The position numbers and the translations under genes were made by a program. A stretch of 64,000 nucleotides of DNA from Bacilli bacterium (GTDB lineage: Bacteria > Bacillota_I > Bacilli_A > RFN20 > CAG-826), in the NCBI GenBank assembly GCA_024399115.1, contig JAKSHZ010000002.1:19790-83789 (forward strand), written 5' to 3'. Positions 49,111-51,981 of this stretch are shown in pieces; the stretch's first letter is position 1, and each line of letters opens with the position of its first letter. The notes beneath the pieces were generated by a model. The model saw only the letters and a list, made by a program, of their open reading frames with translations, was not told where the DNA came from and ran no database searches.

Positions 49111-49135
49111 ATTTCTTTTTGATAGCGATCGCTAT

Positions 49136-49207
49136 CCCTTTCCTGAGGATTCAATTATTATCTTTGTTACACCTCAAATAACAAAATATCAAAAAATAGA
49201 TAAAAAT
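49136..49207 (-). promoter_or_regulatory. Conserved 5' leader element (copy A), shared with 51804-51877
   Basis: mRNA sense: AAUUUUU...UUUGAGGUG-loop-CCUCAGGAAAGGG. A perfect 16-nt palindrome GAUAGCGAUCGCUAUC (plus 49121-49136) follows, and then the AUG. Confidence 0.4.
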
Positions 49208-49313
49208 TGCTTATATAGCTAATTCTTAAGATCTTTTGTAACTTAATTGTAAATTTAATAACTTTATTAATTTATGACTAATTTGCTAATCTATATAAAT
49301 TATGTTTATAAAC

Positions 49314-49345
49314 CTAAAAAAAGAGATGCACGAATGCATCTCTAA
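49314..49345. terminator. Bidirectional intrinsic terminator after the 801-aa lipoprotein gene
   Basis: Perfect hairpin AGAGATGCA-cgaa-TGCATCTCT with A7 upstream and T-rich downstream. Confidence 0.55.
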
Positions 49346-49367
49346 TTTTTGTTTTAGAATTTCTTAA

Positions 49368-51773
49368 CTATTCAGCTGAAGTGAACCAAGATTCAACGTG
49401 TGTGAATACTTCTGGAAGTTCAGAAGCACTAACTTCTTCAACTTCGAATGATAAAGCTCTGTTAGCATTGCCGACGTGTTGCCATTCGTTTCTACCTTCA
49501 GTTAAATCTAATTGAGCAGTAGGAGTTGTACCTCTAGCAACAGTGATTTTACCTTCTTCTAAAGTGATTGATTCTATAGGTAAGACAACGTTAATTTCTT
49601 CTGAACCACTATATGTCCATTCCCAGAATGCAACGATGAATTCACCATCTTCAACAACAGCAAAGTATGTATCACCAGCTTGAGCGATGTTAGAACCACT
49701 CTTGTATGTATTACATTTTGTTGATGATTTGAAGTATTGGATACCACCAACTTCTTTACCGATGAATACGATATCAACATATGAAGGAGCAAAGCTGTCT
49801 AAGCAAGCTAATTCGATTGTATTATCGCCTTCGACTAAGTCTACATCAGCAACTTTAATTAAACCAACACGTGTGTGAGTTTCGTCATTAGTGAAAGCTG
49901 ATGTTGAAACTGTAGAATTTAAGTTAACTAATGCGTTGTATTTATCAGTTGTAACAGTAAGAGCATCACCATTTAAGAACCAGTTTGTATTAGTTCTGCC
50001 ATCTGGTAATGTAACAGCAGATGAACCGCCATTCTTACCTGTTTGCCAACCCATTGCATAGTTACCAGCATTATCAACACCACCGTTGATGTATAAAGTA
50101 CCTTTGTATGCTTTGTCTGTGCTAATGACATATTTTGCTTTTGTGTTACCAGAAGCATCTTTTGTTAACTTAGCACCTTGTGCAGTAATATTACCATTTA
50201 AGTCTTGAGCAGCATTAACAGTCATCTTTGTTAAGCCACAAACGCTACATGTATCAACACCGTAAGCATTTTTGCCTTCTGCAGCTGCTACTGGAGTACC
50301 AGCGACGAATGTGTGTGCAACTTTTTCAAGAACGACGTCTTGTGTTTTGCCACATGAACATGCCATGACTTTCTTACCTTCTTTTTTACAAGTTGGTTCA
50401 ACTCTCTTAGTTGTATCTTCAGTTTCGTAAGCGTGGATGTGGTCGCCTGTTGCTTCTTCGTCTGTAGCTCTAAATGTGAACTTATAGAATACTGATCTAT
50501 AACCACCAGCCATAACTAATTTGATTGAGTGTTCACCAGCTTGTGTAAAATTGAAGACATATGGTAATTGATAATCTTGTTGTACTGTATTTGATCCAGC
50601 TGGAACTACGATTTCAGGATCAAAGTCTTTAACTTGGCCATCAACGTATAAAACGTATCTGTAATCTTCAACAGGATCTCCTGCTGCGTGGTTAGCTGAA
50701 TCTTCAATGTATAAAGCTTTTGTCCAGTCAACATCACCATCGTGAATTGCCCAGAAATCCATTCTGTTATTGCTCATCCATTGAGCAGCTGTAGCTGTAC
50801 AATATAATTTGTAAGTACCTGTTTGTTCTGCAGTTAAATCGAATTTGTATTCGAAGAAGTCACCAGTCTTAGTAGCATCAAAGACTGCTGGAGTATCTTC
50901 TGCAGGGTCGCCGTTAGCGCCTAATTCACAGTCATTACCGATTGGGTGACCAAAGAATCTTGCACCACCTTCATCATTAATGACTAATGTTTCTTTAGAA
51001 GCTGCAGTAACTTCTTTTGCTTCGAAACCGAATGATGTATCACCACAACCTCTATCACAAGAATACATACGAACAACTGCTTTATCAGAGCCTTCTGGAC
51101 GTTCAGTTGGTTCACCAACTAATTGGAAATTGTGTTCTAATTGAGCTTCATCAACATCAGCAACTTCACTACAACGTGTACATGCTTTATGACCTTTACC
51201 AGCAGCTAAACAAGTAGCGTGACCATAGCCTTCGCCCGTCCAATCAACGATATCTTTGCCATCATCATCTTTTGCATATGTGTGGCCTAAAGCACCTTCT
51301 TCATAATCATAGTCTAAATTACATGCTGTACAGTGTTTTTTACCACCGACACCTGCATCTGTACATGTTGGGGCAGTTGTCCAAGTAACTTTGTCTGAGC
51401 CATCTTCGTTCTTTTCGTATGTGTGAGCGAGCTTAGCAATTGTAGTTGTTCTTGGATCACCACATGCTGAACATTTTTCTTTCTTTGTACCTTCTGCGAT
51501 ACATGTTGCAGGAATTGTTGCGCCTTCACCACTTGTAACTTCAACATAAGTATGAGATTTCTTAGAAATATCTCTTACATCTTCATAGCCACAAACAGTA
51601 CAAGTTCTTTTCTTAGAACCTTTTTCAGTACATGTTGCTTCTTTAACAACAACGTCTTCACCGTATGTATGTTTAGCACATGGTTCAACAGGTTCTTCTG
51701 GTTTTTCACCACATCCTGCCATACCTAATGTAAGAGCAAGAGCAGCTAAACCAACTAATTTATTCTTTTTCAT
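49368..51773 (-). CDS. Large surface lipoprotein with about 8 His/Cys knuckle repeat modules and beta-rich C-terminal region
   Basis: 801 aa. Lipobox LGMAGCG. Repeats HTY...ATCTEKGSKKRTCTVCG and similar. No CX5R motif. Confidence 0.5.
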   Translation of the reverse strand: MKKNKLVGLAALALTLGMAGCGEKPEEPVEPCAKHTYGEDVVVKEATCTEKGSKKRTCTVCGYEDVRDISKKSHTYVEVTSGEGATIPATCIAEGTKKEKCSACGDPRTTTIAKLAHTYEKNEDGSDKVTWTTAPTCTDAGVGGKKHCTACNLDYDYEEGALGHTYAKDDDGKDIVDWTGEGYGHATCLAAGKGHKACTRCSEVADVDEAQLEHNFQLVGEPTERPEGSDKAVVRMYSCDRGCGDTSFGFEAKEVTAASKETLVINDEGGARFFGHPIGNDCELGANGDPAEDTPAVFDATKTGDFFEYKFDLTAEQTGTYKLYCTATAAQWMSNNRMDFWAIHDGDVDWTKALYIEDSANHAAGDPVEDYRYVLYVDGQVKDFDPEIVVPAGSNTVQQDYQLPYVFNFTQAGEHSIKLVMAGGYRSVFYKFTFRATDEEATGDHIHAYETEDTTKRVEPTCKKEGKKVMACSCGKTQDVVLEKVAHTFVAGTPVAAAEGKNAYGVDTCSVCGLTKMTVNAAQDLNGNITAQGAKLTKDASGNTKAKYVISTDKAYKGTLYINGGVDNAGNYAMGWQTGKNGGSSAVTLPDGRTNTNWFLNGDALTVTTDKYNALVNLNSTVSTSAFTNDETHTRVGLIKVADVDLVEGDNTIELACLDSFAPSYVDIVFIGKEVGGIQYFKSSTKCNTYKSGSNIAQAGDTYFAVVEDGEFIVAFWEWTYSGSEEINVVLPIESITLEEGKITVARGTTPTAQLDLTEGRNEWQHVGNANRALSFEVEEVSASELPEVFTHVESWFTSAE

Positions 51774-51803
51774 AAACTAATTTTTACGTAATACCTTGTA
51801 TTA

Positions 51804-51877
51804 CCCTTTCTCGAGGATTCGAATATTATTTTTGTAGCACCTCAAATCTACAAAACAACAAAAAGTCACCAAAAATT
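51804..51877 (-). promoter_or_regulatory. Conserved 5' leader element (copy B)
   Basis: About 80 percent identical to 49136-49207. A different palindrome GUAAUACAAGGUAUUAC (plus 51788-51804) lies between the GAGAAAGGG box and the AUG. Confidence 0.4.
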
Positions 51878-51981
51878 ACTCTAACGGTTAATTTAAGTGC
51901 TTTTCTACACATTTATAATAAGTAAACCCCTATTTTTGAAATATGACATTGTTGCTAAATGAATAGGAAAATTATTAGATA

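What the first reader, a model, noticed from the sequence alone, without database searches (positions are those of the whole stretch)
49111..51880. Conserved 75-nt 5' leader shared by two paralogous lipoprotein genes, with a hairpin conserved in structure but not sequence between an SD-like box and the AUG
Both leaders (49136-49207 and 51804-51877) contain, in mRNA sense, AAUUUUU...UUUGAGGUG, a 20-nt A/U loop, then CCUC(A/G)(G/A)GAAAGGG. The AUG lies 25-30 nt further on and has no SD near it. The intervening segment is a perfect palindrome in each copy but with entirely different sequence (GAUAGCGAUCGCUAUC versus GUAAUACAAGGUAUUAC). Conservation of a stable hairpin without sequence conservation argues for RNA-level function. 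One option is that the hairpin loops out to bring GGAAAGGG to SD distance from the AUG. Another is that it forms a thermosensor or protein-binding switch controlling this surface-protein family.
Basis: seen in the sequence. Interest (0 to 1): 0.62.

Follow-up and report, generated by a model that had tools for sequence, protein, structure and literature searches.

The report
Split ribosome-binding site in lipoprotein leaders
Two neighbouring surface-lipoprotein genes of an uncultured Bacilli bacterium share a structured mRNA leader in which a small hairpin sits between the ribosome-binding sequence and the start codon, most likely folding out of the way so the two come within working distance, an arrangement shown experimentally so far mainly in phage T4.

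Summary
Both minus-strand lipoprotein genes (ATG at 49110 and 51773) carry the same roughly 100-nt upstream block. No SD lies near either AUG, and a stable hairpin (H2) sits between GAAAGGG and the AUG.

I collected 14 leaders of the same lipoprotein superfamily from at least 8 metagenomic contigs. They share one architecture: hairpin H1 (GAGG, 10-25 nt loop, CCUC); then a strong SD, (A/G)GAAAGG(R)G, in a short linker; then H2 (6-8 bp, loop 3-7 nt); then 9-15 nt; then AUG.

Both hairpins show compensatory changes that exceed shuffle controls, and RNAalifold recovers both without guidance. Family members that lack H2 have the same SD 5-8 nt from the AUG.

In register with the anti-SD, the SD-AUG spacing is 23-31 nt when H2 is counted linearly. 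It is 7-12 nt (median 8) with H2 excised, matching the genome's mode of 8-9.

The best reading is a "split" ribosome-binding site of the phage T4 gene 25/38 type, preceded by a second conserved hairpin. The thermosensor, DNA-operator, in-loop promoter, uORF and long-range pairing readings were tested and are not supported.

The "SD-like box" GAGGUG is the 5' arm of H1. The H2 stem sequence GUAAUAC/GUAUUAC is conserved in most homologs.

Nothing here is shown experimentally, and the transcription start is inferred.

The parts
49172..49178 (-). Leader A, hairpin H1 5' arm UUUGAGG (core UGAGG)
   Evidence: Pairs with 49148-49142. The helix is recovered by RNAalifold and shows covariation.
49149..49171 (-). 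Leader A, H1 loop: 23 nt, A/U-rich, ending in the conserved GAAU
   Evidence: Loop length is 10-25 nt across homologs.
49142..49148 (-). Leader A, H1 3' arm CCUCAGG
49136..49143 (-). Leader A, Shine-Dalgarno GGAAAGGG. It is complementary to the Firmicute 16S 3' tail UCUUUCCU with two G.U pairs. The last G is also the closing base of H2.
   Evidence: best SD register. The same SD lies 5-8 nt from the AUG in homologs without H2.
49121..49136 (-). Leader A, hairpin H2 (A-type): GAUAGC-GAUC-GCUAUC
   Evidence: dG -7.6, z -4.0. The ortholog L006_3919 has GAUAGU..ACUAUC, a C-G to U-A change. Covariation.
49111..49120 (-). Leader A, 10-nt A-rich spacer between H2 and the AUG
   Evidence: Aligned spacing is 7 nt once H2 is excised.
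49108..49110 (-). Start codon of lipoprotein A (338 aa)
   Evidence: An in-frame TAG lies 24 nt upstream with no other start codon between (read).
51840..51846 (-). Leader B, H1 5' arm UUUGAGG
51810..51816 (-). Leader B, H1 3' arm CCUCGAG
51804..51811 (-). Leader B, Shine-Dalgarno AGAAAGGG
51788..51804 (-). Leader B, hairpin H2 (B-type): GUAAUAC-AAG-GUAUUAC
   Evidence: The same stem with different loops occurs in 8 other leaders, and RNAalifold recovers it.
51774..51787 (-). Leader B, 14-nt spacer between H2 and the AUG
   Evidence: Aligned spacing is 11 nt once H2 is excised.
51771..51773 (-). Start codon of lipoprotein B (801 aa)
49180..49207 (-). Leader A, conserved U-rich tract 5' of H1. 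Function unknown.
   Evidence: Pairing with the start region was rejected.
51847..51877 (-). Leader B, conserved U-rich tract 5' of H1. Function unknown.
49246..49251 (-). Candidate -10 box (M2) for gene A, TACAAT. Inferred promoter position.
   Evidence: The column is TATAAT-like in the 8 close leaders aligned there. The best promoter hits in 4 other leaders fall at the equivalent distance from H1.
51912..51917 (-). Candidate -10 box (M2) for gene B, TATAAA. Inferred promoter position.
49271..49288 (-). Distal conserved motif M1 upstream of gene A, TAGCAAATTAGTCATAAA
   Evidence: The motif YNGCAA-N4-5-KTCATAWW is found almost only upstream of family lipoprotein genes.
51940..51957 (-). Distal conserved motif M1 upstream of gene B, TAGCAACAATGTCATATT

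Best explanation
The shared block is the transcribed 5' UTR of two paralogous surface-lipoprotein genes. Its 3' half is a structured translation-initiation region.

A conserved hairpin H1 (GAGG, long A/U loop, CCUC) ends 0-2 nt before a strong extended Shine-Dalgarno, (A/G)GAAAGG(R)G. This SD pairs with the 3'-terminal UCUUUCCUCC of 16S rRNA and lies in the short single-stranded linker between the two helices.

A second hairpin H2 begins at the last SD base and takes up 16-23 nt of the otherwise far too long SD-AUG interval. When H2 is folded, the 30S subunit bound at the SD finds the AUG at a normal distance. This is a 'split' or 'accommodated' ribosome-binding site, as in phage T4 genes 25 and 38. 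If H2 were unfolded, the SD would be 23-31 nt away and initiation should fail. That dependence is enough to explain why pairing is maintained by compensatory evolution.

Shown here: the sequence architecture, its conservation, the covariation, and the spacing arithmetic. Inferred: that the region is transcribed, with a start about 110-130 nt upstream of the AUG; that GAAAGG is the SD in use; and that H2 is accommodated by the ribosome rather than melted. The role of H1 is not established. It may keep the SD linker defined, or protect the mRNA.
For: 1. Architecture recurs. It appears in 14 leaders of one lipoprotein superfamily from at least 8 contigs. H1 is present in 13 and H2 in 11.

2. H2 pairing is conserved. 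91.3% of cells are paired, 6 of 8 pairs change on both sides, and the covariation score is 0.547 against 0.183 +/- 0.048 for shuffles (0/500 reach it). Sliding the partner column collapses pairing to 24-61%. Examples of compensatory changes: C-G to U-A between A and its ortholog, G-C to A-U in L065, and A-U to G.U in L005.

3. H1 core pairing is conserved. 92.7% of cells are paired, 3 of 5 pairs change on both sides, and the score is 0.291 against 0.130 (2/500). One leader has CGGG/CCCG in place of GAGG/CCUC. The fifth pair alternates between U-A, A-U and U.G.

4. RNAalifold on unedited MAFFT alignments recovers H1 and B-type H2.

5. A natural deletion series exists. Family leaders without H2 have the same SD 5-8 nt from the AUG.

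6. Aligned SD-AUG spacing fits. Ordinary window genes peak at 8-9 nt. H2 leaders sit at 23-31 nt counted linearly and at 7-12 nt (median 8) with H2 excised.

7. No alternative SD, upstream in-frame start or conserved uORF start exists.

8. The leader and signal-peptide codons are the best-conserved part of the genes between the window and relative L006: 75-87% identity, against about 35-62% over most of the mature coding region (one B segment reaches 83.5%).

9. The mechanism has an experimental precedent. For T4 genes 38 and 25 a hairpin reduces spacing from 22 to 5 nt and from 27 to 11 nt (PMC3014915).
Against: - There is no transcript or translation data. The TSS is inferred only from promoter-like hexamers and from the argument that covariation implies transcription.
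- The 16S 3' end of this organism is not in the window. The anti-SD sequence is assumed from Bacilli in general, with support only from the other SDs in the window.
- Excised spacings of 10-12 nt in B and four other leaders are longer than the genomic mode, and the helix itself adds some path length.
- Most H2 covariation comes from one contrast (A-type against B-type stems). That could be a single replacement event, not many independent substitutions.
- I chose the arms used for the pair counts and put them in register myself, with fixed filler between them.
- The model does not explain why the hairpin exists at all, since paralogs without H2 place the same SD next to the AUG.
- Single-sequence MFE folds of the full A and B leaders do not predict H1.
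Confidence: 0.55

Rival explanations
1. Regulatory switch. H2, or the H1-SD-H2 module, is the target of a trans-acting factor (RNA-binding protein, small RNA or temperature) that turns translation of this surface-protein family on or off. The looping-out geometry is only the permissive state.
For: The B-type stem sequence GUAAUAC/GUAUUAC is conserved across three protein subfamilies and many contigs. RAAU at the end of the H1 loop is conserved in 11 of 13 leaders. The whole 5' cassette is more conserved than the proteins. A family-specific distal motif suggests coordinated control.
Against: H2 loops vary freely in length (3-7 nt) and sequence, and the A-type stem is unrelated in sequence, so no common recognition surface is evident. 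H2 is predicted to stay folded beyond 50 C, and the SD and AUG lie outside it, unlike known RNA thermometers. No alternative pairing partner for either hairpin is conserved (inspection of the sequences). Rfam has no match.
Confidence: 0.15
2. mRNA-stability element. H1 and H2 act as barriers against 5'-3' exonuclease or endonuclease attack on a long A/U-rich leader. Initiation at the A-rich, unstructured start region does not depend on the distant GAAAGG.
For: Hairpins flanking a ribosome-bound SD are known 5' stabilisers in Firmicutes (from my own knowledge of the aprE, ermC and cryIIIA STAB-SD leaders; not checked here). The region around the AUG is unstructured and A-rich. Several leaders without H2 still have a hairpin just upstream of the SD.
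Against: This genome relies on strong SDs at 7-9 nt for most genes. The position of H2 is constrained so that excising it restores normal SD spacing, which a pure stability element would not need. H1 is about 50 nt from the inferred 5' end, not at it.
Confidence: 0.15
3. DNA-level element. The conserved block is the promoter (TTGAGG as -35, TnGAAT or GATAAT as -10), and the palindromes are operators for DNA-binding regulators. On this reading the hairpins are not RNA structures.
For: Promoter-like hexamers lie inside the H1 loop in some leaders, for example TTGTTA-16-GATAAT at 49184-49157. TTGAGG-17-T(T/C)GAAT is present in both window copies. H2 of leader A is a perfect 16-bp palindrome.
Against: The distance from GAGG to CCUC ranges from 10 to 25 nt, so GAGG cannot be a -35 box at fixed spacing in all members. 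GAGG covaries with CCUC and is replaced by CGGG/CCCG in one leader. TTGAAT and TCGAAT lack the A at position 2 of the -10 hexamer. H2 half-site spacing varies by 4 bp, which does not fit a dimeric operator. In-loop promoter hits occur in only 3 of 12 scanned leaders, whereas upstream hits cluster at one position in 4.
Confidence: 0.08

Closest known systems
Split ('accommodated') translation initiation regions of phage T4 genes 25 and 38
   Same: An SD lies too far from the AUG (22 and 27 nt in T4; 26-31 nt linear here). A hairpin lies wholly between them, and folding it restores a functional distance (5 and 11 nt in T4; 7-12 nt aligned here). The hairpin is conserved among close relatives and absent in distant ones (PMC3014915).
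   Different: This case is chromosomal and bacterial rather than phage. It sits in a multigene lipoprotein family, not at an overlapping gene junction, so no upstream coding constraint explains the arrangement. It is preceded by a second conserved hairpin, H1. It has no experimental support.
E. coli thrS and rpsA 'split ribosome-binding sites'
   Same: The ribosome accommodates a folded hairpin within its binding region without unfolding it (PMC3936740; PMC1805508).
   Different: In thrS the accommodated hairpin lies upstream of the SD and separates two single-stranded ribosome contacts. In rpsA the proposed discontinuous SD was later disputed. In neither case is a hairpin placed between a canonical SD and the AUG.
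RNA thermometers (ROSE, fourU)
   Same: A short A/U-rich hairpin lies in the translation initiation region of a surface-exposed protein gene.
   Different: Thermometers sequester the SD or AUG inside a marginally stable helix. Here both lie outside H2, which is predicted to stay folded far above body temperature. Melting would switch translation off, not on.
Conserved 5' UTR plus signal-peptide cassettes of Mycoplasma variable lipoprotein families (vsp, vlp, vsa). Comparison from my own knowledge, not checked here.
   Same: Paralogous surface lipoprotein genes share a highly conserved 5' non-coding region and signal peptide while the mature proteins diverge.
   Different: No homopolymer tract, invertible element or recombinase was seen. 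Each gene here has its own terminator-bounded intergenic region. The conserved part here contains covarying RNA helices.
5' mRNA stabilisers and STAB-SD of Firmicutes (aprE, ermC, cryIIIA). Comparison from my own knowledge, not checked here.
   Same: There is a hairpin upstream of the SD, and an SD-like GAGGUG far from the start codon.
   Different: GAGGUG is base-paired within H1 and can be replaced by CGGG. H1 is not at the inferred 5' end.

Membership tests
Split / accommodated RBS (T4 gene 25/38 type) | A sequence complementary to the anti-SD lies too far upstream of the start codon to work linearly | tested here: met
   Aligned spacing is 23-31 nt, against a genomic mode of 8-9 nt. The anti-SD sequence is assumed from Bacilli.
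Split / accommodated RBS (T4 gene 25/38 type) | No other SD or alternative start codon at a functional distance | tested here: met
   The 9-15 nt before the AUG are A/U-rich and lack an SD. L018_3327 has a weak AGGA 4 nt from the AUG. An in-frame stop lies upstream.
Split / accommodated RBS (T4 gene 25/38 type) | A stable hairpin lies entirely between the SD and the start codon | tested here: met
   dG is -5.0 to -8.5 kcal/mol in 10 folded leaders (the 11th, L065). z is -4.0 and -2.3 for the window copies.
Split / accommodated RBS (T4 gene 25/38 type) | Folding restores the SD-AUG spacing to the functional range | tested here: met
   7-12 nt (median 8) with the hairpin excised. This is arithmetic only. 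The path length of the helix is not modelled.
Split / accommodated RBS (T4 gene 25/38 type) | Pairing maintained in relatives | tested here: met
Split / accommodated RBS (T4 gene 25/38 type) | Stem-disrupting mutations lower translation and compensatory mutations restore it | not testable with these tools
   Needs reporter fusions.
RNA thermometer | The SD and/or AUG is sequestered in the temperature-labile helix | tested here: not met
   The SD lies in the linker and the AUG lies 9-15 nt downstream of H2.
RNA thermometer | The helix melts within the physiological range | tested here: not met
   The predicted open fraction is at most 0.002 at 45 C and at most 0.032 at 55 C. This is a nearest-neighbour model only.
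Any curated Rfam cis-regulatory family | Covariance-model match | tested here: not met
   Nothing at gathering threshold except SRP RNA elsewhere in the window. There are only chance-level hits at E <= 10 in 48900-52200.
Sigma-70 promoter occupying the GAGG-to-CCUC segment | -35 and -10 hexamers at 16-18 bp spacing, conserved among homologs, with A at -10 position 2 | tested here: not met
   The segment varies from 10 to 25 nt. TTGAAT and TCGAAT lack the A. Hits are inconsistent between leaders.
Upstream ORF / translational coupling | A conserved start codon and reading frame in the leader | tested here: not met
   A frame is open from the UGA in UUUGAGG to a UGA overlapping the AUG in both copies. 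Only A has a start codon (UUG); B has UCG at that position.
Phase-variable lipoprotein cassette (Mycoplasma type) | 5' UTR and signal peptide conserved among paralogs | tested here: met
   63-71% identity between A and B. Between the window and L006 it is 75-87%, against about 35-62% over most of the mature coding region.
Phase-variable lipoprotein cassette (Mycoplasma type) | A switching device (homopolymer tract in the promoter, invertible segment, recombinase) | tested here: inconclusive
   None was seen in the sequences read: T-runs are at most 7 nt, and no inverted repeats flank the promoter region. No dedicated search was made.

The most novel reading that the evidence does not exclude
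The H1-SD-H2 module is a dedicated translational control unit for a regulon of surface lipoproteins, not just a tolerated spacer hairpin. In this reading the folded H2 helix (and the conserved RAAU in the H1 loop) is recognised by a trans-acting factor or by the 30S platform itself. Translation of the family could then be switched or boosted together with the family-specific distal promoter motif. That would make it a new class of cis-regulatory leader in uncultured Bacilli.
Probability: 0.12. Interest if true: 0.7.

Novelty: new member of a known kind. Interest (0 to 1): 0.45.

Why it matters
The phage T4 examples are the only experimentally shown cases I found of a hairpin that bridges an over-long gap between the SD and the start codon. 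Here the same geometry is conserved, with compensatory base changes, across a whole family of bacterial surface-lipoprotein genes from several uncultured organisms. Paralogs that lack the hairpin provide a natural deletion series.

If confirmed, it would show three things:
- Ribosomes of Firmicute-type bacteria routinely accommodate a helix in the SD-AUG spacer.
- Gene finders and RBS calculators that assume linear spacing mis-score such genes as lacking an SD.
- There is a compact, portable element for testing how much structure the spacer can hold.

It also defines a conserved 5' cassette (distal motif, U-tract, H1, SD, H2, signal peptide) that marks an uncharacterised, fast-evolving surface-protein family.

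Tried and rejected
1. Reference-genome scan for the motif.

2. Protein-based metagenome scan. It returned only two loci, which hold the same distant homolog, and neither has the leader.

3. Two viral-contig pattern scans. All 45 hits lacked a downstream lipoprotein ORF; most are GC-richer contigs.

4. Rfam at gathering threshold and at E <= 10. Nothing relevant.

5. Pairing of the conserved U-tract with the AUGAAAAAA start region. Same-leader duplexes average -6.8 kcal/mol and cross-leader duplexes -6.7, and shuffled tracts do as well. Rejected, despite a suggestive UAG/ACU match in L005.

6. Upstream ORF or translational coupling. The frame is open in both copies, but no start codon is conserved.

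7. Promoter inside the H1 loop. The spacing is inconsistent and the -11 A is missing.

8. Thermosensor.

9. DNA operator. The half-site spacing is variable.

10. Alternative pairing between the H1 loop and the H2 arms. Short matches appear in A, B and L005 but are not conserved (inspection).

11. A single covariance model for the whole module. I dropped this because MAFFT cannot hold A-type and B-type H2 in one register. I used in-register arms for pair counts and RNAalifold on subsets instead.

12. Pfam on the proteins. No domain in A or B.
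Full report
**1. What is in the window**

Two adjacent genes on the minus strand, A (48094-49110, 338 aa) and B (49368-51773, 801 aa), encode proteins that start with typical lipoprotein signals: MKKTKVLSLTTLLLALGLAGCGEK and MKKNKLVGLAALALTLGMAGCGEK. Each is preceded by the intrinsic terminator of the upstream gene (49343-49322 and 52020-51997) and then by about 200 nt of intergenic DNA.

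In mRNA sense the two upstream regions align at 79% identity, with an almost identical core from AATTTTT to GAAAGGG. The 43-nt core occurs only at these two places in the 64 kb window, even with three mismatches allowed. Chance expectation is 0.00.

The window has 36% G+C. Its other genes, including a ribosomal-protein operon, mostly have GGAGG-type SDs 7-9 nt before the ATG. A and B have none there. The nearest purine-rich box, GGAAAGGG or AGAAAGGG, ends 26 and 31 nt upstream of the AUG.

The segment in between contains a perfect 16-nt palindrome in A (GATAGCGATCGCTATC) and a 7-bp stem with a 3-nt loop in B (GTAATAC-AAG-GTATTAC). Both fold better than shuffled controls, with z = -4.0 and -2.3. 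Rfam has no family matching the region.

**2. Getting relatives**

A scan of the reference-genome collection gave only a chance hit. A protein search identified the source as an NCBI MAG named "Bacilli bacterium" and returned 77 metagenomic homologs.

I fetched contigs for eleven homologs, plus the window's own contig, and read every upstream region. The leader-bearing genes fall into three subfamilies of one lipoprotein superfamily that shares Cys-rich repeats. The window itself carries an island of such modular lipoproteins at about 37-52 kb, but only A and B have this leader. Pfam finds no domain in A or B.

**3. The common architecture**

In 14 leaders from at least 8 contigs, the order from 5' to 3' is:
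- **Distal motif M1.** YNGCAA-N4-5-KTCATAWW lies 172-187 nt before the ATG in the long leaders.
- **TATAAT-like block M2**, about 35 nt downstream of M1.
- **A U-rich tract.**
- **Hairpin H1.** Its core is (U/A)GAGG paired with CCUC(A/U/G), and its A/U-rich loop is 10-25 nt.
- **Spacer** of 0-2 nt.
- **The SD**, (A/G)GAAAGG(R)G.
- **Hairpin H2**, with 6-8 bp and a loop of 3-7 nt.
- **Final spacer** of 9-15 nt (8-14 nt in the fixed arm register), then AUG.

The table is, and L065 was added. H1 is present in 13 leaders and H2 in 11.

Nine of the eleven H2 stems are the B-type GUAAUAC/GUAUUAC or a variant of it differing by compensatory or wobble changes. Only A and its ortholog have GAUAGY/RCUAUC.

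**4. Are the hairpins RNA structures?**

*H2.* With arms placed in register, 91.3% of cells form standard pairs and six of eight pairs change on both sides. The covariation score is 0.547 against 0.183 +/- 0.048 for shuffles (0 of 500 reach it). Sliding the partner by one to three columns drops pairing to 24-61% (without L065).

Individual compensatory events include:
- C-G to U-A between A and its ortholog in L006
- G-C to A-U in L065
- A-U to G.U in L005

*H1.* For the 5-bp core, 92.7% of cells pair and three pairs change on both sides. The score is 0.291 against 0.130 (2 of 500) (for 7 pairs). The fifth pair alternates between U-A, A-U and U.G. One leader (L003_530) has ACGGG/CCCGU in place of AGAGG/CCUCU.

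*Independent check.* RNAalifold, run on unedited MAFFT alignments, recovers H1 and B-type H2.

*Caveats.* I chose the arms myself. Much of the H2 signal is the single A-type against B-type contrast. The sequences are related, so the shuffle counts are not probabilities.

**5. Is the block a promoter instead?**

Promoter-like hexamers occur inside the H1 loop, for example TTGTTA-16-GATAAT at 49184-49157 and TTGAGG-17-T(T/C)GAAT. Four things argue against a promoter there:
- The distance from GAGG to CCUC ranges from 10 to 25 nt, so GAGG cannot serve as a -35 box across the family.
- GAGG covaries with CCUC.
- TTGAAT and TCGAAT lack the A at position 2 of the -10 hexamer.
- In-loop hits occur in only 3 of 12 scanned leaders.

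By contrast, the best promoter candidates in four leaders from different contigs end 60-65 nt upstream of H1. That position coincides with block M2. I therefore infer a transcription start about 110-130 nt before the AUG. This has not been shown.

The variable spacing of the H2 arms (3-7 nt) also argues against a dimeric DNA operator.

**6. How it most likely works**

Family members that lack H2 carry the same SD 5-8 nt from the AUG (L003_3318, L003_530, L018_625, L003_5001, and the more distant L008 and L009). They form a natural deletion series.

I placed each SD in register with the complement of the Firmicute 16S 3' tail (AGAAAGGAGGUGAUC). This tail sequence is assumed, because the 16S gene is not in the window. 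It is consistent with other window SDs such as AGAAAGGA, GGAGG and GAGGUGA.

| Group | Aligned SD-AUG spacing |
|---|---|
| Ordinary window genes | peak at 8-9 nt |
| H2 leaders, hairpin counted linearly | 23-31 nt |
| H2 leaders, hairpin excised | 7-12 nt (median 8) |
| Family leaders without H2 | 3-7 nt |

This is the geometry of the "split" translation initiation regions of phage T4 genes 38 and 25. There an intervening hairpin reduces spacing from 22 to 5 nt and from 27 to 11 nt, and destabilising mutations lower translation (review PMC3014915). Once such a hairpin sits in the spacer, selection for translation alone would maintain its pairing. The covariation therefore does not by itself prove any further regulatory role.

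**7. Alternatives tested**

- **Thermosensor.** The SD and AUG lie outside H2, and the predicted open fraction is at most 0.002 at 45 C. Not supported.
- **Protein-binding loop.** The loops are not conserved.
- **U-tract pairing with the start region.** Same-leader and cross-leader duplexes are equally stable, at -6.8 and -6.7 kcal/mol. Rejected.
- **Upstream ORF.** The frame is open, but no start codon is conserved.
- **Full-length leader folding.** The leaders are not unusually stable (z = -1.6 and -0.7). Single-sequence folds agree only on H2.

**8. What remains unexplained**

- Why the hairpin exists at all.
- The role of H1. SD-likeness of GAGGUG is not required, because it can be CGGG.
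- The conserved RAAU at the end of the H1 loop.
- The U-tract.
- The family-specific distal motif.
- Why the B-type stem sequence persists across subfamilies. It could reflect common ancestry, gene conversion of the 5' cassette, or recognition of the stem.

Between the window and its relative L006, the leader plus signal-peptide codons are 75-87% identical. Most of the mature coding region is only about 35-62% identical, apart from one B segment at 83.5%. This is the pattern of a conserved 5' cassette on diversifying surface proteins.

**9. Verdict**

This is a real, conserved RNA-level feature. It is best read as a bacterial example of a split ribosome-binding site, preceded by a second conserved hairpin. 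It is a new member of a known kind. The support comes from comparative analysis only. It is of moderate interest and is cheap to test with reporter fusions.

Noticed in passing
window 49288-49271 and 51957-51940 (minus strand); also L003-L019 and L065: A distal motif YNGCAA-N4-5-KTCATAWW lies about 95-187 nt upstream of the ATG. In intergenic DNA it was found only in front of lipoprotein genes of this family and of the neighbouring phosphatase-domain lipoprotein type, including GC-richer distant homologs. L005, L018 and L019 carry two or three TATCATA-like copies. It could be an activator site, an UP-like element or a -35 region.
   Followed up: partly
window 49207-49180 and 51877-51847 (minus strand): A conserved U-rich tract (UUUUUG..UUUUGU) lies just 5' of hairpin H1 in nearly all close leaders. 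Complementarity to the AUGAAAAAA start region is no better than for mismatched or shuffled controls.
   Followed up: yes
window 49152-49149 and 51820-51817 (minus strand): The last four loop bases of H1 (GAAU; RAAU in 11 of 13 leaders) are conserved immediately before CCUC. This holds even in the leader whose stem changed to CGGG/CCCG. No pairing partner was found.
   Followed up: partly
window 37161-51773 (minus strand): An island of six consecutive lipoprotein genes (670, 904, 583, 891, 338 and 801 aa). Five of them share modules with one another or with the A/B family in different combinations: Cys-rich repeats, a Y_phosphatase3 domain in the 891-aa protein, and the family's C-terminal domain. 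A and B have no Pfam domain.
   Followed up: partly
window 39174-39195 (minus strand, upstream of gene 37161-39173): The leader reads GAAAGG-TATTAC-AT-ATG, which is an SD followed by what looks like only the 3' arm of the B-type hairpin. In leader B a direct repeat AAGG(G)TA flanks the 5' arm plus loop, so slippage could delete half the hairpin. It may also be coincidence.
   Followed up: no
window 49176-49108 and 51844-51771 (minus strand): In both leaders a reading frame is open from the UGA inside UUUGAGG to a UGA that overlaps the lipoprotein AUG (AUGA). Only leader A has a start codon in it (UUG); leader B has UCG there.
   Followed up: yes
L006 (whole locus) compared with window 48094-52000: The closest relative has nearly identical leaders and signal peptides. 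Its mature proteins are 43% (A) and about 58% (B, N-terminal part only) identical, and an extra Big_2-domain lipoprotein gene is inserted between the two orthologs. This points to rapid turnover of the surface-protein bodies behind a fixed 5' cassette.
   Followed up: partly
window 31926-32010 (minus strand): Bacterial small SRP RNA (Rfam RF00169, 59.7 bits). A 10-bp A/U hairpin follows it immediately, directly in front of the ATG of the next gene (29445-31883), which has no recognisable SD.
   Followed up: no
L017 3132-7810: In one relative the family gene sits next to a block of AbiH, HipA_C, HTH, TacA1-antitoxin and acetyltransferase genes (defence and toxin-antitoxin type). The neighbourhood is therefore not conserved.
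   Followed up: no
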